Assembly (NCBI GenBank): GCA_964542785.1
Contig: CAZIUK010000003.1
Coordinates: 12,946-76,945 of the forward strand
Length of the DNA: 64,000 nucleotides
Direction of reading: 5' to 3'
Origin: an uncultured Planctomycetales bacterium
GTDB lineage: Bacteria; Omnitrophota; Gorgyraeia; Gygaellales; Profunditerraquicolaceae
The position numbers and the translations under genes were made by a program. The notes beneath the pieces are model-generated. The model searched no databases, was not told the DNA's origin, and saw nothing but the letters and a program-made list of their open reading frames with translations. Positions within the stretch are counted from its first letter, which is position 1. The number at the start of each line of letters is the position of its first letter. Positions 29,260 through 61,599 of the stretch are shown in pieces.

Positions 29260-29307
29260 TTGACAAAAACCCCATTCTTTTATATCATTTGATATAGAGT
29301 TATATCA
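29260..29307 (+). promoter_or_regulatory. Promoter with an overlapping palindromic operator candidate upstream of the HTH/secretin operon
   Basis: TTGACA (29260-29265), a 17-nt spacer and TATCAT (29283-29288). The perfect inverted repeat TATATCA-tt-TGATATA spans 29281-29296, and a third TATATCA lies at 29301-29307. Confidence 0.45.
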
Positions 29308-29358
29308 AGTGCTATAACTTACCATATATCTATAATCCTTTTAACAGAGGAGACTCAA

Positions 29359-29586
29359 ATGGCCGAATCCTTAATTTCTCCCGCTGAAATAACTAAAATT
29401 CATAGCATATCTTATCAGACGGTTAACTACTATACTAACCTTGGGCTCTTAAAAGTCAAAAAGAGAGAGGCTAATAATCGTCTTTACAGCTCCAAGGAAG
29501 TCAGTTCTAGCTTAAAGAAGGTCTCTGAGCTTAAGAGCCGGGGGTATTCATTAAAGCTTATATGTGATTTATTAAGAAAGGGCTGA
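29359..29586 (+). CDS. Small MerR/excisionase-type HTH DNA-binding protein
   Basis: 75 aa. The HTH-like segment is ISPAEITKIHSISYQTVNYYTNLGLL, and the GAGGAG RBS lies upstream. Confidence 0.55.
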   Translation: MAESLISPAEITKIHSISYQTVNYYTNLGLLKVKKREANNRLYSSKEVSSSLKKVSELKSRGYSLKLICDLLRKG

Positions 29587-29590
29587 TGGG

Positions 29591-30415
29591 ATGAGCTATT
29601 ATTCCGCGCTGGGGTTAAAAAAGGAACCTTTTTCTAATAGCCCTGACCCCGATTTTTTCTTTGAATCCAATGAACATAAAGCTGCCCTTACCAGGCTTTT
29701 GATTGAAATACGTCTGCGTAGAGGCTTAAGCGTTATTTTAGGTGATGTAGGAGTCGGCAAGACTACTCTTTCCCGTAAACTTTTTCAAATGCTAAAAGAG
29801 CGTTTGGATATACTCTTCTTTATGGTCTTGGATCCAACCGCTGAAAGCGCAGAGTTATTCTTAGAGTCGTTAGTGCGTACCTTTAACCTGCAGGATGATA
29901 TCGGTGATTCTCCGACAATACTTGATTATAAAGAGGTTATTAAAAAATTTCTCTTTCAGAAGGGGGTGGAGGAGAATAAAACTATAGTTTTAGTTGTTGA
30001 TGAAGCTCAAAAGCTTAACCCCTTGTCTTTAGAGATCTTACGCGTCTTATTAAATTATGAAACTAATGATTTTAAGCTTTTGCAGTTAGTCTTATTGGGG
30101 CAGTTGGAGCTCTTGTCTAGAATAAAAGAGATTAAGAATTTTTATGACCGTATAGTCCTTAAATATGTAATAAACCCTTTAGATGAATTAGCGACAAGGG
30201 ATTTAATTGATTTTCGTTTGAAGCATTCTGGTTTTGATTCTGAACTAAAACTTTTTACAGAGGAAGCAGTTAGCGAGGTTTACCGTTATAGCCAAGGTTA
30301 TCCGCGCAGGATTAATTTAATTTGCCATAATTCATTAAGAAATTTTTTGATGAGCAAAAAAACTTTAATTGATGCAGATATAATTAGAGAAGCAATAACT
30401 AAAAGCGCCTTATAG
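29591..30415 (+). CDS. GspA/ExeA/MshM-like AAA ATPase (AAA_22 type)
   Basis: 274 aa. Walker A is GDVGVGKTT and Walker B is VLVVDEAQ. No peptidoglycan-binding domain is visible. Confidence 0.7.
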   Translation: MSYYSALGLKKEPFSNSPDPDFFFESNEHKAALTRLLIEIRLRRGLSVILGDVGVGKTTLSRKLFQMLKERLDILFFMVLDPTAESAELFLESLVRTFNLQDDIGDSPTILDYKEVIKKFLFQKGVEENKTIVLVVDEAQKLNPLSLEILRVLLNYETNDFKLLQLVLLGQLELLSRIKEIKNFYDRIVLKYVINPLDELATRDLIDFRLKHSGFDSELKLFTEEAVSEVYRYSQGYPRRINLICHNSLRNFLMSKKTLIDADIIREAITKSAL

Positions 30416-30417
30416 TT

Positions 30418-31077
30418 ATGGATAAACAGAGCTCTGACGAAAGACTCCTTAAGCTTATAGAAGGTCAATATAATACCACTACCTTAAAAGGACAGCAAAT
30501 CCCATTTCCCAAAGGACAGAAGCCCGCTATAGAGAAAATAGAGAGAAAATTTAACCTCAATAAATTATTATCTCAAATTAAGGAGCTAAAAATTGATTTA
30601 GTTTATATTAACAAAGGATTAATTTTAGCAGCTGTTTTTTTAGTTTTAGTTTTTTTATTTACTATCTTTACTCCTCCTGGGACTTCTCTTTTAAGCCTTG
30701 AGACTTTTAATAACGCTAGCTCTCGGCAGATAGAGCAGCTAATTAATATGGGGCAAAAGCAGGCGAGTTTGCGTAAATCTGCCTCCTTTAAGGATATAAA
30801 AAGGAATATATTTCTTCCTTTTAGCGCTCCTCAGGGTTTATTAAACCTACAGCAAGCTACAGAATTATCGGAAGAGATAAAAGCGTTAAAATTGGTGGGT
30901 ATTATTTGGTCGGCTGATCCTGAGGTTATGATTGAGAATGCAAAAGACACAAGGACTTATATACTTAAAAAAGGAGATACTTTTAATGAATCTTATAAGG
31001 TAAAAAATATAACACGCAATTCAGTAACCTTGCAGGTATCTACCCAAGATGGCCTAAAGGATTATGAGCTAAGATGA
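30418..31077 (+). CDS. Bitopic membrane protein with a GspB/GspC-HR/PilP-like C-terminal domain
   Basis: 219 aa with a central TM segment (LILAAVFLVLVFLFTIF). The C-terminus is LKLVGIIWSADPEVMIENAKDTRTYILKKGDTF..YKVKNITRNSVTLQ. Confidence 0.5.
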   Translation: MDKQSSDERLLKLIEGQYNTTTLKGQQIPFPKGQKPAIEKIERKFNLNKLLSQIKELKIDLVYINKGLILAAVFLVLVFLFTIFTPPGTSLLSLETFNNASSRQIEQLINMGQKQASLRKSASFKDIKRNIFLPFSAPQGLLNLQQATELSEEIKALKLVGIIWSADPEVMIENAKDTRTYILKKGDTFNESYKVKNITRNSVTLQVSTQDGLKDYELR

Positions 31078-32609
31078 GGATTTTATTTTATTTTTTCTTA
31101 TATTTATCTTTATTTTTATTTTATCCCGGGTTAATTTTATCAGGAGAGGAAGGTACGCAGGTAAGCGCAGTTAAGGAGGTTAAGTTAGACGGGGTAAATG
31201 ATGATAGTCAAGAGAGTATTGATAAGATTTCTTTGGATCTGAAAGGGGTTGATATCAATGAGCTTTTTAAGATAATTTCTGCAAAATCCGGAATCACCAT
31301 AGTTACCTCTCCTGAAGTAAGGGGCCGGGTTTCGGTTTTTATTGATAATTTAAGTTTTGATGATGCGTTAGACGTAATCGTGACCTTACAGGATCTTGCT
31401 TACGAGAAGAAGGGGAACGTAGTAAAGGTGATGACTATGGTAGAGTATGAGCGGGCCTATGGGAAAAAATTCGGGGAGAGGAAAGAGACCCGTACTATAC
31501 GGCTTACTTATGCTAAGCCTTCTAATGTCGTCAATGCAATTACCTCCTTAAAGTCTGACCTTGGCAAGATTATTGCCGATGAATCTACCGGGACTATTAT
31601 TATAACCGATACTCCGCAATCTTTAAGTGTCATTTTAGAAGCTATTAAAGAATTAGACCGTCCTTTAGAAACTTTAGTAATTGATATTAATTATGCGCGT
31701 TTTGGGGATATAAAAAATTACCTGAATGAATTAATTACCCCCGGGGTAGGGCAGATTATCTCTGATGATAGAAGCGGTAAAGTGGTGGTTTATGATTTTC
31801 CTCAAAGGTTGGCGCGCATTAAAAACCTTTTGCAGGAATTAGACGAACAGTCCCGTCAGGTGCTTATTACTGGAGAGATTATTGAAGTAGAGATAGGCGA
31901 TAAATTTCAAAGCGGTATTGAGTGGGAAAAAATATTTAAGTCTGTGCATATGGATAATTTGGATTTAGTAGCGAAATTTCCAGTTACCCCGGCTTTGGCT
32001 AATTACGGTAAAATTAGCATAGGAACCTTGACACAGGACCATTATAATATAATAATTAATATGATTAATGAATATGGAAAGACTAAGATACTTAACCGCC
32101 CTAGGATTGTGGCGGTTAATAAAGAAGAGGCTAGGATTCTTGTCGGGACTCGCGAGGCCTATGTTACCTCTAGCCAAAGCCAAAGCGAAACTTCTGTAGT
32201 TACCGCAGAGAACATCAACTTTGTAGATGTCGGGCTTAAGCTGGTGGTTATTCCTACTATTGGCTCTGACGGTTTTATTACTATGAAAATAAAGCCTGAA
32301 ATCAGCACAGTAAAGGAGTATTTAGATACTGAGGCAGGTGGCCGTGTGCCGATAGTTAAAACTGCTGAATCGGAGACTGTGGTTAAGGTAAAAGACGGAA
32401 ATATGTTAGTTATAGCAGGGTTGATGATAGATAGTGATTTAAAAGAGGCTAAGGGGCTGCCTGATTTGTCTAAGTTGCCTATTTTAGGCCATTTATTTTC
32501 TACGAAGACAAAGGAAAAGACAAAATCAGAAATAGTTATTTTTATAACGCCAACAATTATAAGCGGCACTAGTGATTTTGGGCGCGAGGAGAGAAATGCA
32601 ATCAGGTAA
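31074..32609 (+). CDS. Secretin (PilQ/MshL/GspD family), paralog 1
   Basis: 511 aa with a signal peptide and an N0/STN-like domain (ISLDLKGVDINELFKIISAKSGITIV...). The secretin core includes LNRPRIVAVNKEEARILVG, IPIVKTAESETVVKVKDGNMLVIAGL and VIFITPTII. Confidence 0.85.
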   Translation: MRILFYFFLYLSLFLFYPGLILSGEEGTQVSAVKEVKLDGVNDDSQESIDKISLDLKGVDINELFKIISAKSGITIVTSPEVRGRVSVFIDNLSFDDALDVIVTLQDLAYEKKGNVVKVMTMVEYERAYGKKFGERKETRTIRLTYAKPSNVVNAITSLKSDLGKIIADESTGTIIITDTPQSLSVILEAIKELDRPLETLVIDINYARFGDIKNYLNELITPGVGQIISDDRSGKVVVYDFPQRLARIKNLLQELDEQSRQVLITGEIIEVEIGDKFQSGIEWEKIFKSVHMDNLDLVAKFPVTPALANYGKISIGTLTQDHYNIIINMINEYGKTKILNRPRIVAVNKEEARILVGTREAYVTSSQSQSETSVVTAENINFVDVGLKLVVIPTIGSDGFITMKIKPEISTVKEYLDTEAGGRVPIVKTAESETVVKVKDGNMLVIAGLMIDSDLKEAKGLPDLSKLPILGHLFSTKTKEKTKSEIVIFITPTIISGTSDFGREERNAIR

Positions 32610-32628
32610 TATTATAAATGGTATAAAA

Positions 32629-32665
32629 GGGGACAGCGACTTTTTTATCAAAAAGTCGCTGTCCC
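32629..32665. repeat. REP-like inverted pair (hairpin) between the two secretin genes
   Basis: GGGGACAGCGACTTTTT-tatc-AAAAAGTCGCTGTCCC forms a perfect 16-bp stem. Confidence 0.95.
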
Positions 32666-32670
32666 TATTT

Positions 32671-34611
32671 ATGAAATGGGGTATCTGCCTATTTTTATTA
32701 TTTTTGCTGATAGCGCCTTTAGGGGCTTTTATTTTTGCGCAAGGCGATATTGATTATGATGAACAGATAGATAAGATTTCTTTAGATTTAAAGAATGTTG
32801 AAATTGTAGAGCTTCTGCGCATACTTTCTCTTAAGACAAAAAAGACAATTGTCCCCAGCAAAGATATCTCAGGGCGCGTTACTATTTACCTTAATAACGT
32901 CTCTTTTAATGACGTTTTAGATATAGTCCTTTTAACTCAAGGCCTGGCTTTAAACAAAAAAGATAATATTTATTATGTTATGAGCGAAGCTGAATTTAAA
33001 AAAATTTTCGGCCGGGATTACATTGACAATAGAAAGGTAGAGACGGTAAAGCTTGCTTATGCTAAGCCCTCGGTAGTTTTTAATGCCTTAGGCCAGTTAA
33101 AATCAGATCTGGGGAAATTAGTCGTAGATGAATCAAGCGGGACGGTTATTCTTATAGATATTCCCGAAAAACTTTCTCTGATGAAAAAGATGATAAATGA
33201 AATGGACCAGCCATTGACAACCAAGGTCTACAACCTTAACTACATTAAAGCTGCTGATGCTAAAACTCAAATAACTGCCGCTATTACGCAAGGCACAGGA
33301 GAGGTTATAGTAGATGAAAGAAGCAGTAAAGCTATTGTTTCAGATTTATCTAAGAAAATGGATAAGATAGGTATGCTTGTACGCGAGATAGACGAAGAAT
33401 CGCGCCAGGTTTATGTGGAGGCTGATATTGTAGAGCTTAGTTTAAGCGATAAGTTTGAGCGCGGCATAGATTGGGAGAAGGTTTATACCTCTGCGGCTAT
33501 GGATGGATTAACCTTTGCCGGTTATTTCCCTGCTACATTAGCGCAGTTTCAAAAAATATCCGTTGGCACTTTAGCCGTGGATCACTACAAGGCCATATTA
33601 AATTTTCTTAACACTTACGGCAAGACGAATATCATCTCTCAGCCTAGGATAGCAGTTGTTAATAATGAAGAGGCAAATATTATGATTGGCGTGCGTGAGG
33701 CTTATATAACACAGACGCAGAGTCAGGCTACTTCCACTACGGTTACTTCGGAAACGGTAGAGTTTATTGATGTTGGCGTTAAGCTTAAAATATCCCCAAG
33801 GATAGGCTCTGATGGTTTTATCACTATGAAACTTAAACCTGAGGTAAGCTCTGTAAAGGAGACAGTAGAGACTTCTTTAGGCAGCCGTATTCCGATAGTC
33901 CAGACTTCTGAGTCAGAGACGACGGTAAAGGTTAAGGATGGGACGATGATTATGATTGCCGGGATGACTAAGATTGAAAATGTAGATGCGATTAAGGGTT
34001 GGCCAGTGCTTTCTAAAATTCCCTTTCTTGATATATTCTTTGGCAATCGTACCAGCGAGAAAAAGAGAACAGAGGTTATAGTCTTTTTGACTCCGAGAAT
34101 AATGCGCAGTGATGAAGGCTTAAGAGGATTAGAGATTGCTAAGATTCTCCCTAAGGAATATCTGCCTGAGAAGCTGCAGGTTAAGATAGACAGGGACCAG
34201 AAGATAGATGACGCTTTGTTTGAGACTGAGGAGAATCCGCAGGAATTACTTACGGCGCGCGATTATTATTTTAAGGGGTTAGAGTCGCAGGCATCTTTGG
34301 ATAATAAAGAGGCCATACGTTATTTTAAGAAGGCTATAGAGTTAGATAGTAAATATGCCGCGGCTTATAACAATTTAGGAATTGCTTATGAGAAGGAGTT
34401 TATGCCGGAAAAAGCAGAAGAGGCGTATCTTCAGGTTATATCTATGGACCCTTCTTTTGTCTCTGCTTATTCTAATTTAGCCTTACTTAATGAAGACCGG
34501 CTTGATTATGCCCGGGCGCTTATTTATTGGAGAAAACGAGTCCTTTACGGAGACCCTAATGATGAGTGGACTAAACAGGCTGTTCAAAGGGTTAAGGAGC
34601 TTAGCCGTTAA
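32671..34611 (+). CDS. Secretin paralog 2 with a C-terminal TPR extension
   Basis: Domain order matches paralog 1, with roughly 45-50% identity by eye. It adds a TPR-like tail (AIRYFKKAIELDSKYAAAYNNLGIAYEK...). ATG 32671 directly precedes the signal peptide MKWGICLFLLFLLIAPLGAFIFAQG. The upstream in-frame ATGs at 32572 and 32596 read through the REP hairpin. Confidence 0.8.
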   Translation: MKWGICLFLLFLLIAPLGAFIFAQGDIDYDEQIDKISLDLKNVEIVELLRILSLKTKKTIVPSKDISGRVTIYLNNVSFNDVLDIVLLTQGLALNKKDNIYYVMSEAEFKKIFGRDYIDNRKVETVKLAYAKPSVVFNALGQLKSDLGKLVVDESSGTVILIDIPEKLSLMKKMINEMDQPLTTKVYNLNYIKAADAKTQITAAITQGTGEVIVDERSSKAIVSDLSKKMDKIGMLVREIDEESRQVYVEADIVELSLSDKFERGIDWEKVYTSAAMDGLTFAGYFPATLAQFQKISVGTLAVDHYKAILNFLNTYGKTNIISQPRIAVVNNEEANIMIGVREAYITQTQSQATSTTVTSETVEFIDVGVKLKISPRIGSDGFITMKLKPEVSSVKETVETSLGSRIPIVQTSESETTVKVKDGTMIMIAGMTKIENVDAIKGWPVLSKIPFLDIFFGNRTSEKKRTEVIVFLTPRIMRSDEGLRGLEIAKILPKEYLPEKLQVKIDRDQKIDDALFETEENPQELLTARDYYFKGLESQASLDNKEAIRYFKKAIELDSKYAAAYNNLGIAYEKEFMPEKAEEAYLQVISMDPSFVSAYSNLALLNEDRLDYARALIYWRKRVLYGDPNDEWTKQAVQRVKELSR

Positions 34612-35965
34612 CTTAAAACCAAAGAAGAGCTTTTTTCAGGAGAAACTCCTCCTCTTTTCTTTTTTCATCCTTATTTTTAGCACCTTTCTTATAGGATCTG
34701 TTGGTATATCCAAAATATATTGGTTTAATGCTAAAGTTAAAGATTTAGCCCAACATAACCTTAAATTAGAGTCCGCAGTTCTTGAGATGAGGATAAGGAA
34801 TGCTAATTTTGCGATGGGGGTGCGTAACTATGTTTTTTGGCGCGCTTCACGCTACTTGCAGTCTGTATCCATTGCCGGAGACTTAGATAAGATTTTTATT
34901 TCGGTAGAAGATTTTGAAGAGCATCTTAAAGCGTATCGCCAGAGTTCTTATCTAAAGGAGCAGAGGGATTGGGCAGATGAAGTAGCTTTAGCTTTTGATG
35001 GGGTTGTCCAGCAAGGCAAGAGGCTTGTTGAGCTGCTTGGAAAAGAAGAACCGGGAAAGATAAGCGAGCTTATAAACAGCCAGTTGATGAGCTTTGAGAA
35101 TAATGTTTACCGAATTGATGAATTTTTAGATAAGGCGATGGGCAAGTCTAATCTTGCTGAGGTAGAGCGCCAGATGCTTATTACAGCTCAGGATAAGGAG
35201 CAGGCTATTAGTTTTTTGAAGGTAAGCCTTATTGTATCTATTCTTATGGGGTTAGTTATTGCGTCTGTGGTATATCGCAGGATAGTCCGGGAAAAAGCTT
35301 ACCGCCAGAAACTCTTTGACCGGATTGTAAATCTTGAGGAGGACGAGCGTAAGAAGCTCTCTACCGCGGTTCATGATGAGATGGGCCAAGACTTAAGCGC
35401 CCTTAAGATTTATTTAGGGTTAATTTCTCAAGAGCTGCCGGATATAGCTGAAGATACTAAGAAAAAGCTTGATGAGTGCAAAAAGATCGCTTCCGGGCTT
35501 ATCGAGAAGAGCCATAATATTTCTTTTCTTCTCAGGCCCCCGGAGTTAGACGAGGTAGGGCTTTTAGAGAGCATAGAATCGCTTCTTCTTGAGGCTAAAC
35601 ATTTAACGGGGATAGAGTATTCATTTCAGAAGCCTAAGCTTTTGCTGGATTGTTCGGCAGAGAGGAGTCTTTTGCTTTACCGCGCCTCTCAGGAACTTTT
35701 AACCAATATGATAAAATATGCAAAGGCAAAAAATGTGGTTTTACGTTTAAATAGGATCGGTGATTCCGCTCAGCTTTTTTATTATGATGATGGTTGCGGG
35801 TTTGATCTTGCAAAGTTAAAGTATAAATTATTGCGCCGCAGAGAGGATAAGTTTGGCTTGGGGTTATTGGGCCTGAAAGAAAGGGTGGAGCTTTTAGGCG
35901 GGGATATAAAGATAAATTCGTCTTTGGGGGGAGGCACGACTATTATAGTCAATTTGCCGCTTTAA
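34559..35965 (+). CDS. Sensor histidine kinase (HisKA_3/NarX-DegS type)
   Basis: It has two TM segments flanking a sensor domain of about 190 aa. The H-box is AVHDEMGQDLSAL and an HATPase_c domain follows (ELLTNMIKYA, DDGCGF, GLGLLGLKERVELLGG). ATG 34559 has GGAG 6 nt upstream and overlaps the 3' end of the secretin gene. Confidence 0.8.
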   Translation: MMSGLNRLFKGLRSLAVNLKPKKSFFQEKLLLFSFFILIFSTFLIGSVGISKIYWFNAKVKDLAQHNLKLESAVLEMRIRNANFAMGVRNYVFWRASRYLQSVSIAGDLDKIFISVEDFEEHLKAYRQSSYLKEQRDWADEVALAFDGVVQQGKRLVELLGKEEPGKISELINSQLMSFENNVYRIDEFLDKAMGKSNLAEVERQMLITAQDKEQAISFLKVSLIVSILMGLVIASVVYRRIVREKAYRQKLFDRIVNLEEDERKKLSTAVHDEMGQDLSALKIYLGLISQELPDIAEDTKKKLDECKKIASGLIEKSHNISFLLRPPELDEVGLLESIESLLLEAKHLTGIEYSFQKPKLLLDCSAERSLLLYRASQELLTNMIKYAKAKNVVLRLNRIGDSAQLFYYDDGCGFDLAKLKYKLLRRREDKFGLGLLGLKERVELLGGDIKINSSLGGGTTIIVNLPL

Positions 35966-35967
35966 TC

Positions 35968-36609
35968 ATGCCTATAAGAGTCGCTATAGTCGATGACCAC
36001 GATATAATCCGTTTGGGGATAAAGAGTGTCTTAGAGAAAATCACAGATTATGAAATTTGCGCTGAAGGAGAGAATGGCGAAGAAGCCTTAAAGATCGCGC
36101 AAAGCTTATCTCCGGATATTATGTTGTTAGATATAACTATGCCTAAGCTTGGAGGGCTTGATATTATTTCCAGGATAAAACGTGCCAGTCCTAAAACCCG
36201 CATTGTGATTATTTCGGTGCATAAATTAGGGGCGTATGTTTTAAAGGCCTTAAGGCAAGGAGTAAGCGGGTATCTTAATAAGGAGAATGTTGCAGAAGAA
36301 CTACTTCTAGCACTTTCAAGCGTATCTAAGGGTAAGGTTTATTTTGGTCAAGAGATATCTCAGTATCTTGCAGAGACTGTTAAAAACCCGGACCAAAAAC
36401 CCTTGTCTCACAGCCTTCTGAGTGAAAAGGAATTGGATATTCTGCGTTTGGTAGTTGAAGGGAAGACAGCAAAAGAGATAGCAGAGGTTACTTTTCTAAG
36501 CCATCGGACAGTTGAAAATTATAAGAATAGTATTATGAAAAAGCTTAATTTACACAAGACAAGTGATTTGATTAAGTACTCATTAGAGAACAAAATACTT
36601 GATATTTGA
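35968..36609 (+). CDS. NarL/FixJ-family response regulator (REC + LuxR-type HTH)
   Basis: 213 aa with VDDHD, MLLDITMP and the C-terminal HTH TAKEIAEVTFLSHRTVENYKNSIMKKL. Confidence 0.9.
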   Translation: MPIRVAIVDDHDIIRLGIKSVLEKITDYEICAEGENGEEALKIAQSLSPDIMLLDITMPKLGGLDIISRIKRASPKTRIVIISVHKLGAYVLKALRQGVSGYLNKENVAEELLLALSSVSKGKVYFGQEISQYLAETVKNPDQKPLSHSLLSEKELDILRLVVEGKTAKEIAEVTFLSHRTVENYKNSIMKKLNLHKTSDLIKYSLENKILDI

Positions 36610-36616
36610 TCTTATA

Positions 36617-36644
36617 AATGTCCAATCTAAAATGTCCATTCTAA
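36617..36644 (+). repeat. Tandem 14-mer direct repeat
   Basis: AATGTCCAATCTAA is followed directly by AATGTCCATTCTAA, with one mismatch. The first copy starts 8 nt after the response regulator stop. Confidence 0.9.
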
Positions 36645-36656
36645 GGAGAAGGGAAA

Positions 36657-36670
36657 GGGGGACAGCGACT
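36657..36670 (+). repeat. Solo REP-like half-site
   Basis: GGGGACAGCGACT. Confidence 0.85.
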
Positions 36671-36791
36671 ATTTATAAGAGTAATATTTATAATAAAATA
36701 GAGTAGTTTTACGATTGTTATTTTAGGATAAATATAATATACTTAAGGTACAGGTTAAAAATAAAAAATGGCAGGTATAATGAAAATAATA

Positions 36792-36818: not shown

Positions 36819-36872
36819 GGGGACAGCGACTATTACTATTTTTGCGCTATGATAAAAAAAGTCGCTGTCCCC
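36819..36872. repeat. REP-like inverted pair with a 30-nt spacer, overlapping the start codon of the next gene
   Basis: GGGGACAGCGAC (36819-36830) pairs with GTCGCTGTCCCC (36861-36872). The ATG at 36849 lies inside the spacer. Confidence 0.9.
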
Positions 36873-39338
36873 ATTTTGGTTGCGTGTTTTTTTGTTGTCG
36901 CAGCGCAGGCAGAGGTCTTGGTAATTAAAGCTCCCTTAACTTGGGGGCTTGATAAATCCGCAGAATACCCTTTGCCAAAAGTATTAAACGGTATTTATAC
37001 AACTGACCAGTTTGTAGCTACTGAAGGACAAGTTAGCGCTATTACGATGAATTGGGAATCAAGGGGCGCTATATCAATGGAGGTAAGCGCTGATAATGGG
37101 CTGCATTATACTCCGGTAATAAATGGCGTTCCTTTAGAGAGCGGTTTTGTAAGTGGAGATAGGATTCGCTGGCGGGCACAAGCGCTAAATGAGGATGCGC
37201 AGTTAACAGCGGTGAATCTTTCTTATTCTGATACATCCGGAGTAATAGGGGATTTTGGCCAGCCACTTTTAAGCGGATTTATGTACCGTAAAGAATTTAT
37301 AGTGCGCAATGATTCTAGAGAAGATTTATACAATTATCAGATGAAGCTAAGAATAGGGGAAAGTGAATTAGCCAAGGATGCTGATATCTGCCTTTCTAAA
37401 AAAGCAAAAGAGGATTTTAGCGATATAAGAATTAGCGCATCTGATGGTAAGCGTATTTTATCCTATTATCTTGAAAGCATAGAAGGCGAGCTTCCAGGAA
37501 AGCGCAGTGCTGTAATTTGGGTTAATATTCCTCAACTGCCAAAAGAAAAAGATTTAAAGCTTTACCTATATTATGGGAATCCGCAGGCTTTAAGTTTATC
37601 AAGCGGCGAGCAGACGTTTGATTTTTTTGATGATTTTAAAGACCCTGCCAAGAGCAATGAGAAATGGATAACCTATACAGAAAAAAACGGTACCTTGCAA
37701 TTAAAAAATGGGGAAATTAAGCTTGATGCAGCCGAAGCCATTACAAAAGATTTTCTTTTTAAAGAAGGAATTGTTGAGTATCCCGTAGAGATTGAGAGCG
37801 GTTTTGAAAACAGTTTAAACTTGCGTGTCCAGAATGGTAACTCTTATGATATTCCGCTTTGGTCGGGTTATTCTTCTTTATACAAAGGTGCAGAGCATTG
37901 CATTGCTGTAGAGGGGACAGTAAGAAATAATGACACAACTGCTCTACCTTCTTTTGCCGGAAATAGGTATTACTACCGTTTTGAATATTTTAATGGTAAT
38001 ATAGTCTTTAGCCGTTTTGATGCTTTGACTAAAGAAAAGCAGGCAGAGGCAGTCTTTAAGTCTGATTCTTTGCAAAAAATAGGCTATCTGTCTTTGCGTT
38101 CCGGAGGTGACGGGAATGGCAAGAATGTTATTCGTTTTGGCGCTATACTTGTGCGTAAAGCTGCTTTAATCAAACCGTATTTTGTTTCAGCAGGAAAAGA
38201 AGAGCAACTCTCTTTGCCTATTTTTTCCGGTACAACTCTTTCTTCTTTTGGGAGCCTTACTTTGGCCAAAGGGGCAATGAGCGGGCATTATATTTCAAGT
38301 AATATCCGAAGCGAAGACCAGATAAGGATCATGATCCCTGACTGGGATATTGATTCTCTTGGAGGAGAGTTTATCTTACATCTTTCTGCTGATGCCGGCG
38401 GGTCATATAAGAAAGGCTGCGAAAAGGGGAAGTATTATTATGCTTCAAAAAAGGATTTTGTCCCCGGGAAAAACTTAAAGATACGCATTGACCTTTTAAA
38501 AGGGGCAGGCTCCGAAGTCGAAAAAGTCGCTGTCCCCTTTGTGAAGGTGGAGCATAGGGCAGGAAAGGTAAATATTATTTCACCTAATGGCAGAGAGGTC
38601 TGGGAGGTAGGAAGCAGTAAGAAGATTAGCTGGAGTGCCTTGGATTACGATGAAACTTATCTTTTTGATTTAGCTTACTCTGTCAATGGAGGAAAGGATT
38701 ATATTGAGATTATAGCCAATAAAGATAATGATGGAGTTTATACTTGGGTTGTCCCGGATAAAATTACTAAAATCGCAAAGATAAAGATATCTGATTCTTT
38801 GGATAAAGGTATTTATGATCTTTCCGATGCTTATTTTTCTATTGTAGCTAGAGAAGATTTAAGCATTCAGGAAGAGAAAAAAGAAGAAGCAGGGGTAGTA
38901 GTGCAGGCAGCGCTAAAAGATAAAGCCAGTAAAGAGAGCAAAGATAAGAAAGATAAAGTTACTAAAGAAAGCAAAAAGAAGAAAGATAAAGTTAGCAAAG
39001 AGAACAAAAAGTTGCCGGGGAAAAATCTTTATGATCTTTTAATTAAGATAGGCGATAGCAGGTCTTCCTACAGCGAGGGGGATATTGTTATCTTAAGGCC
39101 TTCAGGTTATATTTGGAGCGTTGAAGAGAGGGAGAAGTTTTTGATTGCGCAGGTATACCTAACTGAAAAGCAGGCTGAGGAATTAACCTCTCCTTTAAAA
39201 ACAAAGGATGGAGAGATATTAAGCCGCAGGAAATATAGGATTAACTTGCTTAAGCAGGGGCTTAAAGGTTTGACAGGGTCAATTAAAAGGCCAAAGGGCT
39301 CTTTTGAGGCAGGGGTTATTGAGGATAAGGCAAATTAG
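36849..39338 (+). CDS. Large secreted protein with a DUF2341-like domain, beta-sandwich modules and a Lys-rich segment
   Basis: The start is set at MIKKVAVPILVACFFVVAAQAEV (signal peptide). The DUF2341-like pattern is YRKEFIVRN...DFSDIRISASDGKRILSYYLES...AVIWVNIPQLP...LYLYYGNPQA. An IISPNGREVWEVGSSKKISW module is present. The K-rich repeat is KDKVTKESKKKKDKVSKENKK. Confidence 0.6.
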   Translation: MIKKVAVPILVACFFVVAAQAEVLVIKAPLTWGLDKSAEYPLPKVLNGIYTTDQFVATEGQVSAITMNWESRGAISMEVSADNGLHYTPVINGVPLESGFVSGDRIRWRAQALNEDAQLTAVNLSYSDTSGVIGDFGQPLLSGFMYRKEFIVRNDSREDLYNYQMKLRIGESELAKDADICLSKKAKEDFSDIRISASDGKRILSYYLESIEGELPGKRSAVIWVNIPQLPKEKDLKLYLYYGNPQALSLSSGEQTFDFFDDFKDPAKSNEKWITYTEKNGTLQLKNGEIKLDAAEAITKDFLFKEGIVEYPVEIESGFENSLNLRVQNGNSYDIPLWSGYSSLYKGAEHCIAVEGTVRNNDTTALPSFAGNRYYYRFEYFNGNIVFSRFDALTKEKQAEAVFKSDSLQKIGYLSLRSGGDGNGKNVIRFGAILVRKAALIKPYFVSAGKEEQLSLPIFSGTTLSSFGSLTLAKGAMSGHYISSNIRSEDQIRIMIPDWDIDSLGGEFILHLSADAGGSYKKGCEKGKYYYASKKDFVPGKNLKIRIDLLKGAGSEVEKVAVPFVKVEHRAGKVNIISPNGREVWEVGSSKKISWSALDYDETYLFDLAYSVNGGKDYIEIIANKDNDGVYTWVVPDKITKIAKIKISDSLDKGIYDLSDAYFSIVAREDLSIQEEKKEEAGVVVQAALKDKASKESKDKKDKVTKESKKKKDKVSKENKKLPGKNLYDLLIKIGDSRSSYSEGDIVILRPSGYIWSVEEREKFLIAQVYLTEKQAEELTSPLKTKDGEILSRRKYRINLLKQGLKGLTGSIKRPKGSFEAGVIEDKAN
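38521..38537 (-). repeat. REP-like half-site inside the coding sequence
   Basis: AAAAAGTCGCTGTCCCC is translated in frame as EKVAVPF. Confidence 0.85.
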
Positions 39339-39379: not shown

Positions 39380-40987
39380 ATGAGAAAGAAGTTATTAGTC
39401 TTCTGGGTTTTATTTTTTGCTTTAGTATTTTTAAAGAGTACCTTTGCCAATAATATAACTGTAAGCAACCTTTCGCTGGATAACCTGGATTCAGCTTCAG
39501 GCACAGTTGAGATAAAGTTTGATTTAGATTGGGAGAATAGTTTTTCCCCGGAACAAGACCCTGATGCTACAACATTTGACGCAGCGTGGGTATTTGTTAA
39601 GTTTTACAGCGGAGATCCTAAGAAGTGGCATCATGCGCGGCTAAGCGAAGGCGGGACCTTCCAGTTGTATAGCACGGAGACAAAATTAGGGATTACCGAG
39701 GATAGAGTAGGTGTTTTTTGCCGCCCGGGAAACAACCAAACCCTTATCTGGAACTATCGTGATGCAGGAGTCAGCTTGGAAGAGGAGGATATAAAGATTA
39801 AGGTCTTTGCCATTGAGATGGTATATATACCAGAGGGAGAGTTTTATATAGGTTCCGGTATGCTAGAAGCTTATTCGTTTTATGACGCCTCTGATCCTAC
39901 TCGGAGTCAGCCTATTAAAATTACTGCCTCTTCTCCCTGGCTCTCTGATAGGGCTAATGGCGCTGAAGGCACAGGAATACCAGGAGATATAGCGTTTAAT
40001 AAGACTACCAGTCCTGGCTATGGTAATCTGCCAGTAGTAAGAACCCAATTAAACCCTAACTATCCTACAGGATACAAGGGGTTTTATATCGCAAAGTATC
40101 CGATCTCTCAGGGTCAATACAGGGATTTTTTAAATACCCTGACTAGGGAAGAGCAGCATAGGCTGGTTGGGAAAACTATAAGTGACACTAACGCATCTTT
40201 CTCACTTCCTGACAATATCCCTCCAGGAACAACAGAGGTAACTAATGTATATGTAATGGAGAATTCTCCCGCCTTAACTAGGCGTGTTTCAATAAGATGC
40301 GATAGCCAGATAGATGCGTATGCTCCGGTAACTTTTTACTGCGACTTAAATGGAAACGGTATTCCTAATGAAGAAGATGATGGAGAGTGGCTCCCGATGA
40401 GTGACATCTGGTGGCACTTTAACGGAGCATTCTGTGATTGGGCAGGGTTGCGGCCTATAACTGAATTAGAATATGAAAAAGCCTGCCGCGGTCCAGTTTA
40501 TCCTGTCCCAGGGGAATTGGCTCATGGGCTTTCTAACGTTAATTATCTTTCGGTTTCCGCTGCCCAGGTAGGTAACCCCGGGCGAATTGATGAGTATGCA
40601 ACTAATAACGGGAACTTTCGTTGGATATATGGTACCTCGTGGATAATGCGGGTAGGTTTTGCCGCGACCCCTAATTCTACCAGGGAATCAGCAATTTCTT
40701 CTTATTATGGGGTAATGGATATGACATCCCAGGTTAGTACTCCTGTTGTAAGTGTAGTTGCTCTTACTTTTGACGGACAACATGGAGATGGAGAGTTAGA
40801 CGCGTCAGTAAACACAGTGCATAATGTGCCTAACTGGCCTACAGATCATGCAGGCTGGCGCTCCGGTGACAGGAATTATGTGAGTGCGGTTTCGTACCGT
40901 TATTCTGATAGCAATCTGGATCCTTTAGTATGGAAAAAGAATCGTACTGGAAATAGCAGTATACGTCCTTGCCGGACTGCTTATTAG
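39380..40987 (+). CDS. Secreted protein with a formylglycine-generating-enzyme (SUMF1/FGE-sulfatase) fold domain
   Basis: 535 aa with a signal peptide. It carries MVYIPEGEFYIGSG, YIAKYPISQGQYRDFLN and GLRPITELEYEKACRG. Confidence 0.6.
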   Translation: MRKKLLVFWVLFFALVFLKSTFANNITVSNLSLDNLDSASGTVEIKFDLDWENSFSPEQDPDATTFDAAWVFVKFYSGDPKKWHHARLSEGGTFQLYSTETKLGITEDRVGVFCRPGNNQTLIWNYRDAGVSLEEEDIKIKVFAIEMVYIPEGEFYIGSGMLEAYSFYDASDPTRSQPIKITASSPWLSDRANGAEGTGIPGDIAFNKTTSPGYGNLPVVRTQLNPNYPTGYKGFYIAKYPISQGQYRDFLNTLTREEQHRLVGKTISDTNASFSLPDNIPPGTTEVTNVYVMENSPALTRRVSIRCDSQIDAYAPVTFYCDLNGNGIPNEEDDGEWLPMSDIWWHFNGAFCDWAGLRPITELEYEKACRGPVYPVPGELAHGLSNVNYLSVSAAQVGNPGRIDEYATNNGNFRWIYGTSWIMRVGFAATPNSTRESAISSYYGVMDMTSQVSTPVVSVVALTFDGQHGDGELDASVNTVHNVPNWPTDHAGWRSGDRNYVSAVSYRYSDSNLDPLVWKKNRTGNSSIRPCRTAY

Positions 40988-41036
40988 GAAGTTAACAGGT
41001 TTTTGTAGGATTAAAGAGGATTTAAAAGAGGGAAAG

Positions 41037-43922: not shown

Positions 43923-44022
43923 CAAGGCGGATTTGGGGATAGTTTTGTTTAGGTAAGGGGATTATAGAGGTTTTAAGATAAGAGTAGTTAGAGATGGTTA
44001 GAAGATGTGGGGTGAATAGATT

Positions 44023-53495: not shown

Positions 53496-54200
53496 ATGAT
53501 AAAAATACTATTGAAGGGTAGGTTTAATTTTATTCTAATTATCTTTATTGCGTTATTTCTTTTTTTTGTTCCTGCGGAAGCTGGCATTACTATGCGCCTT
53601 ATGGCAGTAAACCCGGCTGATTCAGAGCAAACCGTTCCGATAAAGGTTTATCTTCCTGTAGAAGTCAAGCCCGAAGATATAATATATAAAGACGATTTAG
53701 ATGTAGCTTATGATACCCAGCAGGGAAGTTATTATGTTTTTGGAGAATTCCTCTTAGCCCCTAAAGAGGTATTAGAGAAAGAAATAGAGATAAAGGATAT
53801 CTGGGTTATAGATTTAAGCGAGGTTGAAATGTTACGCTTAGAGGCTAAGGATATGCTGAAGTCTTTTAAGAAGACAAAGTATTATGAACGCGCCCAGCTT
53901 ATTTATAATGGGATAGATAAAAAGCTTAAAGAGGTAGAAGAGGAGCAAGATTTGTCTTCTGCCAGCCCTGCTTATAAGATTTCAAATTATAGAAATTCTT
54001 TAAGTTTGATTGATTCTGTCAAGGCCGATCTTGTCTCAGCTAAAACCCTTTTATCTGAGGCTTTACCTAAAGGTATGGCTAAGCTTACTTGGGGAGTTAT
54101 TTTGTTTATTGTGCTTTTTTTAGGGGTTTTAGGGGGAGGATCTTTTTTTATTTGGCAACACCAGTCAAGGCTTGAATCTGAAGAGAAGACCAAGGAGTAA
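53496..54200 (+). CDS. Membrane-anchored hypothetical protein
   Basis: 234 aa with an N-terminal signal/TM and a C-terminal TM (LTWGVILFIVLFLGVLGGGSFFIW). I recognised no motif. Confidence 0.5.
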   Translation: MIKILLKGRFNFILIIFIALFLFFVPAEAGITMRLMAVNPADSEQTVPIKVYLPVEVKPEDIIYKDDLDVAYDTQQGSYYVFGEFLLAPKEVLEKEIEIKDIWVIDLSEVEMLRLEAKDMLKSFKKTKYYERAQLIYNGIDKKLKEVEEEQDLSSASPAYKISNYRNSLSLIDSVKADLVSAKTLLSEALPKGMAKLTWGVILFIVLFLGVLGGGSFFIWQHQSRLESEEKTKE

Positions 54201-54266
54201 ATAAAATAAATACAAATATTATCAGGACAGATAGGGCAAGCCCTTTTAATACCTAAACGTTAATTA

Positions 54267-56835: not shown

Positions 56836-56840
56836 AAAAT

Positions 56841-57053: not shown

Positions 57054-57060
57054 GATAAAT

Positions 57061-57774: not shown

Positions 57775-57778
57775 GCTT

Positions 57779-59251: not shown

Positions 59252-59264
59252 ATGGGATAAATGA

Positions 59265-59337: not shown

Positions 59338-59349
59338 TCCCATTAAAAG

Positions 59350-60192: not shown

Positions 60193-61599
<1,407 letters not shown>

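What the first reader, a model, noticed from the sequence alone, without database searches (positions are those of the whole stretch)
29260..36609. Stand-alone secretin module with its own HTH, GspA-like ATPase and two-component system, but no pilins or platform nearby
**Seen in sequence:**
- One tightly packed + strand block encodes a 75-aa MerR/Xis-type HTH protein, a GspA/ExeA/MshM-like AAA ATPase without a visible peptidoglycan-binding domain, and a bitopic GspB/C/PilP-like protein.
- These are followed by two secretins, then a HisKA_3 kinase and a NarL-type regulator.
- Gaps between the genes range from small overlaps (4 nt for the PilP-like/secretin-1 pair, about 53 nt for secretin-2/kinase at ATG 34559) to about 60 nt, the largest being the REP hairpin between the two secretins.

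**Established knowledge:**
- GspA-GspB (ExeAB) and MshM/MshN assist secretin assembly.
- Secretins normally occur once per T2SS, T4P or MSHA system, next to pseudopilins, a platform protein and an ATPase.
- None of those partners is adjacent here. The only GspE/GspF genes lie 25 kb downstream, behind an ATP synthase operon.

**Inference:** this may be an autonomous, regulated outer-membrane conduit module. It could serve the four giant secreted proteins encoded immediately downstream.
Basis: partly seen in the sequence, partly recalled or inferred. Interest (0 to 1): 0.75.

Follow-up and report, generated by a model that had tools for sequence, protein, structure and literature searches.

The report
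Outer-membrane half of split secretion machine
The block is real, but it is not a stand-alone pore: it is the outer-membrane half of a type II secretion-like machine, conserved across the uncultured phylum Omnitrophota, whose two halves bracket the genes for the large surface proteins it probably exports.

Summary
The block holds a 75-aa MerR-type HTH, a soluble GspA-like AAA+ ATPase and a bitopic protein with a GspC/GspB/PilP-type HR domain. Two paralogous secretins follow (48% identical, the second with a C-terminal TPR tail), then a HisKA_3 kinase and a NarL-type regulator.

The window comes from Candidatus Omnitrophota. The same block, in the same order, recurs in 72 non-redundant related loci and is almost always followed by a DUF2341 lectin-like protein.

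"Autonomous" is not supported.
- In three related contigs, the GspE-GspF genes at the window's end continue into GspL/M-like genes and GspG/J/K pseudopilins. That cluster has no secretin and no GspC.
- The two halves complement each other and are linked in three independent arrangements: cargo genes between them (window type), the AAA-HR pair inserted next to the F-ATPase-GspE operon (L040), and divergent direct neighbours (L089).

Conserved promoter and operator elements lie upstream of the MerR gene and of the DUF2341 gene.

Verdict: a new variant of a known kind, a bipartite T2SS-type system with duplicated secretins. No experimental evidence exists.

The parts
29260..29317 (+). Conserved promoter and operator of the block. 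It comprises a -35 TTGACA (29260-29265), a -10 TATCAT (29283-29288) and the palindrome TTATAT-N6-CTATAA (29300-29317).
   Evidence: This is the best sigma-70-like match in the region, 11/12. TTGACA, the -10 positions and CTATA are invariant in an 18-locus alignment of the MerR upstream regions.
29359..29586 (+). MerR-type HTH protein of 75 aa, DNA-binding domain only.
   Evidence: PF13411, E 3.7e-9. It is present upstream of the AAA gene in 48/51 core loci and 13/14 distant loci.
29591..30415 (+). GspA/ExeA/MshM-class cytoplasmic AAA+ ATPase of 274 aa, with no TM segment and no peptidoglycan-binding domain.
   Evidence: AAA_22, E 1e-17, and TIGR03015-like at 172 bits, below the cutoff. Walker A (GDVGVGKT) and Walker B (VVDEAQ) can be read in the sequence. 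It is the most conserved gene of the block, at 74-80% identity.
30418..31077 (+). Bitopic GspB/GspC-type protein. It has a conserved cytoplasmic N-terminal motif (MDKxTSDERLLKLIEG), one TM helix, a variable linker and a C-terminal HR domain (residues about 155-219).
   Evidence: Alignment A1. The AF2 C-terminal domain has pLDDT about 90. The top four Foldseek hits are PilP/GspC/LspC HR domains. The profile's only PDB hit is GspC HR, 3oss_C. Distant members hit PF11356 T2SSC.
31074..32609 (+). Secretin paralogue a, 511 aa: signal peptide, N0, two Secretin_N domains and a secretin domain, with no C-terminal extension.
   Evidence: Pfam and NCBIfam. Residues 53-259 match GspD N0-N1-N2 crystal structures. 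It falls in clade a of the NJ tree.
32630..32665 (.). REP-like perfect palindrome (GGGACAGCGACTTTTT / AAAAAGTCGCTGTCCC) in the gap between the two secretin genes.
   Evidence: 14 arm copies in the window, against 0.03 expected. One search also scores it as a terminator-like hairpin on the minus strand.
32671..34611 (+). Secretin paralogue b, 646 aa, with a C-terminal linker and about three TPRs (residues about 540-640).
   Evidence: Pfam. It is 48% identical to paralogue a over 453 aa. The fusion is a single ORF even where the linker is longer, as in the 850-aa protein of L036. It falls in clade b.
34559..35965 (+). Sensor histidine kinase: two TM helices flanking a periplasmic region of about 170 aa, then HisKA_3 and HATPase_c.
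   Evidence: An orthologue in L006 has a weak 4HB_MCP_1 hit in the sensor region. It is present in 25/27 core loci and 0/5 distant loci.
35968..36609 (+). NarL/FixJ-type response regulator (receiver domain plus GerE HTH).
   Evidence: About 70% identity across the phylum.
36617..36743 (+). Conserved regulatory region ahead of the first cargo gene. It holds two AAATGTCCA repeats (36617-36639), two GAGTA boxes exactly 22 bp apart (36679-36684 and 36701-36706), a -35 TTGTTA (36715-36720) and a -10 TATACT (36738-36743).
   Evidence: The sequences of 15 loci line up without gaps. The promoter scan finds it. The box does not recur elsewhere in the window.
36849..39338 (+). DUF2341 protein, the first probable cargo or adhesin. 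It is an all-beta multidomain protein with ConA-like lectin/glucanase folds.
   Evidence: PF10102. AF2 gives pLDDT 85.9 and pTM 0.75. Foldseek hits are GH16 glucanases, legume lectins and CBM66. It follows the regulator in 18/22 loci.
39380..53370 (+). Three further large Sec-signal proteins: an FGE-sulfatase-domain protein of 535 aa, an Ig-like protein of 961 aa and a 3115-aa protein. These are the probable cargo. The last about 500-740 aa of the 3115-aa protein (from about 51136) are conserved in other genomes.
   Evidence: The C-terminal region is 40-49% identical in L039, L040 and L041, although the N-terminal parts differ.
53496..55046 (+). A conserved pair after the giant gene: a 234-aa protein with a signal peptide and a C-terminal TM helix, and a secreted Peptidase_MA_2.
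   Evidence: The same pair is in the same position in L039, L040 and L041. In the 42-kb contig only the 238-aa protein is in that position; no Peptidase_MA_2 gene is listed there.
55736..56614 (+). Response-regulator diguanylate cyclase (receiver domain plus GGDEF).
   Evidence: It is conserved just upstream of the F-ATPase genes in L039, L041 and the 42-kb contig.
56599..61599 (+). F-type ATPase genes (epsilon N-terminal domain, c, b/delta fusion, alpha, gamma, beta), joined to gspE.
   Evidence: The pairing with T4aP-type genes in Omnitrophota is described in PMC10066038.
61602..64000 (+). Start of the inner-membrane half: GspE with an MshEN domain (61602-63227) and GspF (63228 onward, running off the window).
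   Evidence: In relatives it continues with GspL-like, GspM-like, GspG, N_methyl, GspJ and GspK genes, with no secretin and no GspC.

Best explanation
The block is the outer-membrane and secretin-assembly half of a bipartite type II secretion-type machine (type IV filament superfamily) that is conserved across Omnitrophota.

**Shown**
- It encodes a GspA-class soluble AAA+ ATPase.
- It encodes a GspB/GspC-class bitopic protein whose periplasmic HR domain has the fold that binds secretin N0 domains.
- It encodes two anciently duplicated, equally conserved GspD-type secretins. The second carries a fused TPR module that is a separate gene in more distant relatives.
- The matching inner-membrane half lies at the far end of the same co-directional cluster. 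It comprises GspE with a c-di-GMP-binding-type MshEN domain, GspF, GspL/M-like proteins and the pseudopilins GspG/H/J/K. It has neither a secretin nor a GspC.
- Genes for large lectin-like and Ig-like proteins with Sec signal peptides lie between the two halves.

**Inferred**
- The ATPase docks on the conserved cytoplasmic N-terminus of the HR protein.
- The HR domain holds the N0 rings of one or both secretins and connects them to the GspL/M/E/F platform.
- The TPR tail replaces a separate pilotin-type or MshN-type accessory.
- The kinase-regulator pair senses an extracytoplasmic cue and switches on the conserved promoter with two GAGTA boxes in front of the DUF2341 and cargo genes.
- The small MerR-type protein acts on the palindrome at the block's own promoter.
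- The cargo proteins cross the inner membrane by Sec and are then pushed through the secretin(s) by the pseudopilus to the cell surface or the medium, for glycan binding or attachment.
For: **Component identities**
- Established.

**Phylum-wide synteny of the block**
- AAA gene present in 54/55 loci.
- MerR gene present in 48/51.
- Two secretins in 34/37.
- Kinase and regulator in 25/27.
- DUF2341 protein in 18/22.

**Complementarity of the two halves**
- In L039, L041 and the 42-kb contig the order is E-F-L-M-G-x-J-K, with no secretin and no GspC.
- The module itself lacks E, F, L, M and pilins.

**Three independent physical linkages**
- Same strand and same contig, 25-36 kb apart, in the window and in the 1.19-Mb contig (L036/L039). 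In addition, the contig lengths 101391, 42186, 245828, 50102 and 12447 are shared between the hit lists.
- The AAA-HR pair sits directly upstream of the F-ATPase-GspE-GspF genes in L040.
- A divergent b/delta-beta-GspE-GspF operon lies 433 bp from the MerR gene in L089.

**Secretin duplication**
- The tree shows two mirror-image clades.
- Both paralogues are conserved at 63-75% in the N0-N2 and secretin domains and 53-56% in the pre-secretin region.

**Regulatory DNA**
- Conserved elements are shown.

**Cargo features**
- Sec signal peptides.
- A lectin/glucanase fold for the DUF2341 protein.
- A conserved C-terminal module in the giant protein.

**Precedents from the literature**
- The GspB HR domain binds secretin N0, and some GspA proteins lack the periplasmic part (PMC9239104).
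Against: - No experiment exists, and the organisms are uncultured.
- The window itself shows only GspE and the start of GspF. The pseudopilin and L/M genes are seen only in relatives.
- Neither secretin reaches any NCBIfam equivalog cutoff (PilQ 227/284, GspD 223/351, MshL 173/250), so T2SS versus T4aP cannot be decided from sequence.
- Seymour et al. classed the E/F cluster as T4aP.
- Whole genomes could not be scanned, so other secretins that might serve the E/F cluster are not excluded.
- In PDB sequence searches the TPR tail matches only generic TPR proteins, so its pilotin-like role is a guess.
- Assigning the regulator and the MerR protein to the conserved DNA boxes rests on adjacency only.
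- Proteins of 3,000-6,000 aa are far larger than known T2SS substrates.
Confidence: 0.7

Rival explanations
1. The block is an autonomous, regulated outer-membrane conduit. It works without a GspE/GspF platform or a pseudopilus and exports the neighbouring giant proteins on its own. The GspA-like ATPase would be the only energy source.
For: - No E, F or pilin genes lie within 10 kb of the module in nearly all loci. GspE is within the fetched locus in only 2 of 72 core loci and 0 of 27 distant loci.
- A MerR-AAA-HR-secretin-TPR cassette stands apart from E/F in the distant clade too.
Against: - The module is physically linked to a secretin-less, GspC-less E/F/L/M/pseudopilin cluster in three different arrangements.
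- The HR-domain protein is the kind of part that couples a secretin to an inner-membrane platform (PMC9239104).
- From established knowledge: a cytoplasmic AAA+ ATPase without a periplasmic part has no known way to drive transport through a secretin, and all characterised secretins work with a type IV filament machine, a T3SS or a phage inner-membrane machine.
Confidence: 0.07
2. The two halves build a surface filament (a type IVa or MSHA-like pilus) rather than a secretion piston. The secretins are the pilus exit pores. The DUF2341 and giant proteins are pilus-associated or independently anchored adhesins, not substrates of the pore.
For: [quoted passage not shown]
- GspE carries an MshEN domain, as MSHA pilus ATPases do.
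- The secretins score slightly higher for PilQ than for GspD.
- DUF2341 is reported in PilY-type pilus-tip adhesins (PMC4858521).
- MSHA systems also combine a secretin, an ExeA-like ATPase and a TPR protein (own knowledge).
Against: - The pilin-like genes in relatives hit the T2SSG, T2SSJ and T2SSK families, and there are only about four of them.
- No PilT-type retraction ATPase, AMIN domain or PilM/N/O/P set was seen in the loci.
- The N-terminal half of the secretin matches GspD N0-N1-N2.
- The cargo genes have Sec leaders, not prepilin leaders.
Confidence: 0.18
3. The secretin module exports or imports something other than protein. The candidates are exopolysaccharide or slime, as shown for GspD/PilQ in cyanobacteria and myxobacteria, or DNA uptake. 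The adjacency to large proteins would then be incidental.
For: - The ATPase's best NCBIfam match is the XrtA/PEP-CTERM exopolysaccharide-locus ATPase family.
- Secretins have been implicated in slime secretion (PMC12475490 abstract).
- One locus (L006) has PMT_2 glycosyltransferases downstream.
Against: - The TIGR03015 score is about half the cutoff, and no exosortase or polysaccharide-synthesis genes accompany the module in the other loci.
- The gene that always follows is a secreted lectin-like protein under a conserved promoter.
- No competence genes were seen.
Confidence: 0.05

Closest known systems
Type II secretion system (Gsp/Pul/Xcp), including the GspA-GspB (ExeAB) secretin-assembly pair
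   Same: - GspD-type secretin with N0-N1-N2 and a secretin domain.
- A bitopic partner with an HR domain.
- A GspA-class AAA+ ATPase encoded next to the HR protein.
- GspE, F, L/M-like proteins and G/H/J/K pseudopilins in the same cluster.
- Neighbouring proteins with Sec leaders.
- A GspA without a periplasmic part also exists in Alteromonas and Pseudoalteromonas (PMC9239104).
   Different: - Two paralogous secretins, kept side by side across the clade that holds the named Omnitrophota genomes.
- A TPR module fused to the C-terminus of one secretin, in place of an S-domain and lipoprotein pilotin.
- A single HR protein that apparently stands in for both GspB and GspC, with no PDZ or coiled-coil domain.
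- No peptidoglycan-binding domain anywhere in the module.
- A MerR-type HTH and a two-component system built into the operon.
- The cluster is split into two halves around the cargo genes, with an F-type ATPase joined to gspE.
- The putative substrates are 800-6,000 aa long.
MSHA pilus secretory genes mshL-mshM-mshN with MshE (Vibrio and Shewanella; recalled from own knowledge)
   Same: - A secretin, a soluble ExeA-like AAA ATPase and a TPR protein are encoded together.
- The assembly ATPase carries the MshEN c-di-GMP-binding domain (PF05157).
   Different: - The secretins score 164-173 bits against the MshL model, whose cutoff is 250.
- No MshI/J/K proteins or MSHA pilins are present.
- The gene order differs.
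- The TPR is fused to a second secretin.
- E/F are 25 kb away, behind cargo genes.
[quoted passage not shown] 2023, PMC10066038), and the T2SS-like loci upstream of giant genes (West-Roberts et al. 2023, bioRxiv 10.1101/2023.11.21.568195)
   Same: - The window's 56.6-64 kb segment is the F-ATPase plus E/F pairing that Seymour et al. describe.
- The general theme of secretion or pilus genes flanking very large Omnitrophota proteins matches both papers.
   Different: - Neither paper mentions secretins. The word "secretin" occurs zero times in either.
- Neither mentions this MerR-GspA-HR-double-secretin-TCS block.
- The West-Roberts locus contains gspD/E/F together with rcpC and a Rotamase_2 protein, upstream of TM-rich genes longer than 25 kb. 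That is a different, Tad-like system.
T4aP PilQ with the PilP HR lipoprotein and a PilF/PilW/Tgl TPR pilotin
   Same: - A secretin, an HR-fold partner and a TPR accessory.
- The TPR tail's weak NCBIfam hits include Tgl (E 5e-7) and PilW (E 8e-6).
   Different: - No AMIN domains.
- The HR protein has a TM anchor and a cytoplasmic motif, not a lipobox.
- The TPR hits are generic in PDB searches.
- In the distant clade the separate TPR proteins have TM anchors or signal peptides without a lipobox cysteine.

Membership tests
Type II secretion system (T2SS) | An outer-membrane secretin of GspD type (N0 and N1-N3 repeats plus a secretin domain). | tested here: met
   Pfam finds Secretin, two Secretin_N domains and N0/STN in both proteins. 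Residues 53-259 align to GspD N0-N1-N2 structures. Both proteins are nevertheless below the TIGR02517 equivalog cutoff, at 223 and 202 bits against 351.
Type II secretion system (T2SS) | GspC: a bitopic inner-membrane protein whose HR domain contacts secretin N0. | tested here: met
   The HR fold is found by AF2 and Foldseek and by a profile hit to 3oss_C. Distant family members hit PF11356. The PDZ or coiled-coil second domain of classical GspC is absent. Binding itself was not tested.
Type II secretion system (T2SS) | A GspE ATPase, a GspF platform protein and a GspL/GspM assembly platform. | tested here: met
   GspE and GspF are in the window. GspL-like proteins (PilN Pfam hit, about 460 aa) and GspM-like proteins follow in L039, L041 and the 42-kb contig. 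The L and M assignments rest on weak or faint Pfam hits.
Type II secretion system (T2SS) | The major pseudopilin GspG and the minor pseudopilins GspH-K. | tested here: met
   T2SSG, N_methyl, T2SSJ and HHH_3/T2SSK hits occur in the relatives' clusters. This is not visible in the window, which ends inside gspF.
Type II secretion system (T2SS) | A prepilin peptidase GspO, and demonstrated secretion of folded periplasmic substrates. | not testable with these tools
   No peptidase gene was seen in the fetched loci. Whole genomes could not be scanned, and there are no cultures.
GspA-GspB (ExeAB) secretin-assembly complex | An AAA+ ATPase of the ExeA class encoded next to a GspB protein with an HR domain. 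| tested here: met
   An AAA_22 ATPase lies 2 nt upstream of the HR protein. The pair stays together in 54/55 core loci and 18/18 distant loci, and moves as a pair in L040.
GspA-GspB (ExeAB) secretin-assembly complex | GspA has a TM segment and a periplasmic peptidoglycan-binding domain (PF01471). | tested here: not met
   The protein is 274 aa, with no TM segment and no PF01471 hit. GspA variants lacking the periplasmic region are known (PMC9239104).
MSHA pilus MshL/MshM/MshN | An MshL-type secretin with MshI/J/K proteins and MSHA pilins. | tested here: not met
   TIGR02519 scores 173 and 164 bits against a cutoff of 250. No MshI/J/K proteins or pilins were found in any locus.
T4aP secretin PilQ | AMIN domain(s), the PilMNOP alignment complex, a lipoprotein TPR pilotin and a PilT retraction ATPase. 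| tested here: not met
   There is no AMIN hit. TIGR02515 scores 227 and 208 bits against a cutoff of 284. No PilT or PilM/O genes were found in the loci. The TPR is generic.
XrtA/PEP-CTERM system-associated ATPase (TIGR03015) | A score above the family cutoff, in an exosortase/EPS locus. | tested here: not met
   The score is 172 bits against a cutoff of 324.5. No exosortase or PEP-CTERM genes are in the neighbourhood.

The most novel reading that the evidence does not exclude
The two co-inherited secretin paralogues do not form two separate pores. They form one hetero-oligomeric or two-layer channel, with the TPR-bearing subunit acting as a built-in pilotin or scaffold. This channel would be widened or otherwise adapted to pass rod-like proteins of 3,000-6,000 aa. 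The machine would draw on the co-transcribed F-type ATPase as well as GspE. All characterised secretin rings are, to my knowledge, homo-oligomers, so a heteromeric ring would be the first of its kind. A search of the held literature found no report of one.
Probability: 0.15. Interest if true: 0.8.

Novelty: new variant of a known kind. Interest (0 to 1): 0.55.

Why it matters
**Biology of the phylum.** Omnitrophota are ultra-small, uncultured and probably predatory or parasitic bacteria. Their biology is thought to depend on very large surface proteins and on pilus-like or secretion-like machines. This analysis ties three features that have been discussed separately into one conserved gene cluster with a clear division of labour:
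- the large secreted lectin-like and Ig-like proteins;
- the F-ATPase/"T4aP" locus;
- a secretin block that, as far as the held literature shows, has not been described.

It also gives that cluster specific candidate regulatory sites.

**Secretion-system biology.** The cluster offers a natural case of several unusual features:
- duplicated secretins under equal purifying selection;
- a secretin-TPR fusion that replaces separate TPR genes;
- a single HR protein paired with a soluble GspA.

Each of these is directly testable by heterologous expression and cryo-EM.

**Scale of the unnamed family.** The HR-protein family is large and has no name. It comprises 2,342 clusters at 50% identity.

Tried and rejected
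- **Fetching the window's own longer contig to read past gspF.** Look-ups with secretin 1, GspE and the beta subunit returned only contigs of 1.7-5.3 kb. Relatives were used instead.
- **Riboswitches or other RNAs controlling the cluster.** Rfam at gathering threshold found nothing in the window, and there are no tRNAs.
- **Showing the TPR tail to be a PilF/PilW/Tgl-type pilotin.** The PDB sequence search returned only generic and designed TPR proteins. The separate TPR proteins of the distant clade have no lipobox. The pilotin reading is kept only as an inference.
- **Finding solved relatives of the AAA ATPase.** The best hit is ORC5 at E 0.015, which is uninformative.
- **Looking for the MerR-promoter palindrome and the GAGTAGTTT box elsewhere in the window as a regulon.** Neither is enriched.
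- **Getting taxonomy for distant HR-family members.** The listing of cluster members returned no names.
- **Searching the literature for heteromeric or tandem secretins.** Nothing relevant was found.
- **PEP-CTERM/exosortase reading of the ATPase.** Rejected, because the score is half the cutoff and the context is absent.
- **Filamentous-phage pIV/pI reading.** Rejected, because there are no phage genes and the block is conserved and vertically inherited.
- **Prepilin-type leaders on the large proteins.** Rejected, because they carry classical Sec signal peptides.

Full report
**Observation**

All genes in the window are on the + strand. Between 29260 and 36609 lie seven tightly packed genes.
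- A 75-aa MerR_1 HTH protein.
- A 274-aa AAA_22 ATPase with no TM segment and no peptidoglycan-binding domain. Its best NCBIfam hit is TIGR03015 at 172 bits, well under the 324.5 cutoff.
- A 219-aa protein with no Pfam hit.
- Two secretins.
- A HisKA_3/HATPase_c kinase.
- A receiver/GerE regulator.

The spacings also match the description.
- Gaps of 4, 2 and 2 nt.
- A 4-nt overlap between the 219-aa gene and secretin 1.
- A 61-nt gap between the secretins, once secretin 2 is started at ATG 32671 in front of its signal peptide. The gap holds a perfect 16+16 palindrome.
- A 53-nt overlap of secretin 2 with the kinase, whose ATG 34559 has a GGAG motif 6 nt upstream.

The downstream proteins of 829-856, 535, 961 and 3115 aa carry ordinary Sec signal peptides, not prepilin leaders. 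GspE and GspF begin at 61602, immediately after F-type ATPase genes.

**The 219-aa protein**

Homologues come almost only from Candidatus Omnitrophota, which also identifies the source organism.

The family alignment shows four parts.
- An invariant cytoplasmic N-terminal motif, MDKxTSDERLLKLIEG.
- One TM helix.
- A variable linker.
- A strongly conserved C-terminal domain.

Three lines of evidence identify that C-terminal domain as an HR domain.
- AlphaFold2 predicts it at pLDDT about 90.
- Its four best PDB fold matches are all HR domains: Myxococcus PilP, ETEC GspC (TM 0.70, rmsd 2.8 A), Legionella LspC and Pseudomonas PilP.
- The family profile's single PDB sequence hit is the GspC HR domain of 3oss, and distant members hit Pfam T2SSC.

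GspB has the same fold. It binds the secretin N0 domain and often works with GspA, and some GspA proteins lack the periplasmic region (PMC9239104). The ATPase-plus-HR pair is therefore best described as a GspA/GspB-like pair that may also supply the GspC function.

**The two secretins**

They are 48% identical over the whole N0-to-secretin core. Each scores about equally against the PilQ and GspD models and below every equivalog cutoff. The N-terminal half aligns to GspD N0-N1-N2 crystal structures.

A neighbour-joining tree of first-position and second-position secretins from 16 loci gives two clades with mirrored branching.
- Mean identity is 66% within the first-position clade, 69% within the second-position clade and 50% between them.
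- Every domain is similarly conserved in both clades.

The duplication is therefore old, and both copies are under constraint.

The TPR tail of the second copy is always in the same ORF, even where the linker is longer. In PDB searches it resembles only generic TPR proteins.

**Synteny of the block**

Loci were gathered from gene tables around homologues, a scan of one genome per GTDB species and a metagenome scan. They were compared by tblastn.

Among 72 non-redundant loci of the core clade (HR protein at least 33% identical to the window's), the counts below are out of the loci with enough flanking sequence.
- The AAA gene is present in 54/55.
- The MerR gene is present in 48/51.
- Two secretins are present in 34/37.
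- The kinase and the regulator are present in 25/27.
- A DUF2341 protein follows the regulator in 18/22.

Toxin-antitoxin pairs are sometimes inserted into the gaps without changing the gene order.

A more distant clade of 27 loci has a simpler cassette: MerR, AAA, T2SSC-like HR protein, one secretin, two separate TPR proteins and a Y1_Tnp-domain protein. It has no two-component system. This suggests that the secretin duplication, the TPR fusion and the acquisition of the two-component system are derived features of the core clade, which holds the genomes named Omnitrophota.

The HR family as a whole is large: 2,342 clusters at 50% identity with E <= 1e-3.

**The other half**

In the 1.19-Mb contig that carries locus L036, GspE lies about 36 kb downstream on the same strand. 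The intervening and following genes run in this order.
- A giant protein.
- A homologue of the 234-aa protein.
- Peptidase_MA_2.
- A receiver-GGDEF protein.
- F-ATPase genes.
- GspE with an MshEN domain.
- GspF.
- A GspL-like protein.
- A GspM-like protein.
- GspG.
- An N_methyl protein.
- GspJ.
- GspK.
- Unrelated genes.

Locus L041 repeats this order and, like L039, has no secretin and no GspC-like gene. The 42-kb contig repeats it too, except that it lacks the Peptidase_MA_2 gene. The window from 53.5 kb to its end has the same order.

Five contig lengths are shared between the HR-protein and GspE hit lists, which indicates that the two genes lie on the same contigs.

Two other arrangements link the halves.
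- In L040 the AAA-HR pair sits between Peptidase_MA_2 and the F-ATPase-GspE-GspF genes.
- In L089 a b/delta-beta-GspE-GspF operon is the divergent neighbour of the MerR gene, 433 bp away.

The two halves have complementary gene content and are joined in three independent arrangements. These are the main grounds for reading the block as half of one machine rather than an autonomous pore.

**The genes in between**

The DUF2341 protein is predicted with high confidence (pLDDT 85.9) as a chain of beta domains. Its PDB matches are GH16 glucanases, legume lectins and CBM66, which points to a glycan-binding or glycan-cleaving surface protein.

The giant proteins differ between genomes in their N-terminal parts: Big_1, Kelch/beta-propeller or NHL/Vgb_lyase domains. 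They nevertheless share a C-terminal region of about 500-740 aa at 40-49% identity. In L039, L040 and L041 that region is followed by the same small membrane protein and the same MA-clan peptidase.

This pattern fits a variable payload on a conserved export or anchoring module. That reading is an inference.

**Regulatory DNA**

Upstream of the MerR gene, 18 loci share three elements.
- An invariant TTGACA.
- A -10 element 17 nt downstream.
- A palindrome, TTATAG-N6-CTATAA.

Between the regulator gene and the DUF2341 gene, 15 loci line up without gaps over the following elements.
- Two GAGTA boxes exactly 22 bp apart.
- A -35-like TTG.
- A -10 element.

ATGTCCA repeats lie further upstream.

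Conserved non-coding elements across such divergent genomes indicate real control sites. Assigning them to the MerR-type protein and to the NarL-type regulator rests on adjacency only.

The receiver-GGDEF gene and the MshEN domain of GspE suggest c-di-GMP control of the ATPase. This inference rests on the established c-di-GMP binding of MshEN domains.

**Comparison with the literature**

- Seymour et al. described non-respiratory F-type ATPase genes next to "T4aP" genes across Omnitrophota (PMC10066038). That is the right-hand half seen here.
- West-Roberts et al. described a T2SS-like locus upstream of genes longer than 25 kb, with gspD/E/F, rcpC and a Rotamase_2 protein. It has a different composition and is probably Tad-like.
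- Neither paper mentions secretins, and neither describes this block.
- No paper on heteromeric or tandem secretins was found in the held library.

**Verdict**

The best reading is the outer-membrane half of a conserved bipartite T2SS-type system. The pilus reading (T4aP/MSHA-like) is the main rival, because sequence alone cannot separate the two.

It is a new variant of a known kind. The open and most interesting point is why two secretins are kept side by side.

Noticed in passing
window 32630-59337 (14 sites, e.g. 32630-32665, 36820-36871, 53392-53448, 59282-59337): A REP-like palindrome arm, GGGACAGCGACTTTTT, occurs 14 times against 0.03 expected. All copies lie between 32.6 and 59.3 kb, mostly as hairpins in intergenic gaps of the supercluster, and none lies in the first 32 kb. 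One arm encodes the start of the DUF2341 signal peptide (KKVAVP).
   Followed up: partly
window 55297-55650; L003 3147-3623; L039 17540-18145; L007 8352-9353; L101 15124-16110: A Y1_Tnp (IS200-like/RAYT-like) domain protein recurs near these clusters. The window has a truncated 117-aa copy. Core loci have full copies a few kb away. In the distant clade a protein of about 330 aa, with a Y1_Tnp domain plus a coiled coil and a TM helix, sits at a conserved position downstream of the secretin-TPR genes. It could be the RAYT for the REP elements, or a domesticated component.
   Followed up: partly
window 56599-61599: The F-type ATPase set has an epsilon subunit (N-terminal domain only, 78 aa), c, a b/delta fusion, alpha, gamma and beta, but no a-subunit gene beside it. 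The beta-subunit gene stops 2 nt before the gspE start codon. In L089 the set is reduced to b/delta plus one alpha/beta-type subunit.
   Followed up: partly
window 44708-45007 vs 46637-46936 (inside 44023-53370): The 3115-aa protein contains an internal direct duplication with a 1929-nt period at 99-100% nucleotide identity, equivalent to about 643 aa repeated. It is either a very recent duplication or an assembly artefact.
   Followed up: no
window 51136-53370; L039 309-1757; L041 98-2389; L040 189-1088: The C-terminal 500-740 aa of the giant protein are conserved at 40-49% between genomes whose giant proteins otherwise have different domains. In each of these three loci this region is followed by a protein of about 234 aa (signal peptide plus C-terminal TM helix) and a Peptidase_MA_2.
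   Followed up: partly
window 19404-23003: The ribonucleotide reductase large subunit is interrupted by an intein with a LAGLIDADG endonuclease domain.
   Followed up: no
window 28823-29209: A single-domain CheY-like receiver lies directly upstream of the block, here and in the closest relatives (L010, L042). In other genomes its homologue lies about 8 kb upstream on the opposite strand, so it is probably not part of the block.
   Followed up: partly
L037 1301-6961: An unclassified MAG has AAA, an HR-like protein (263 aa) and two secretins without a TPR. Both secretins fall outside the Omnitrophota a and b clades, which suggests an independent secretin duplication.
   Followed up: partly
window 36617-36639: Two AAATGTCCA repeats 13 nt apart lie immediately after the regulator's stop codon. 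Similar ATGTCCA repeats are seen at the same place in L003, L017, L019, L021 and L025. They may be a second operator type.
   Followed up: no
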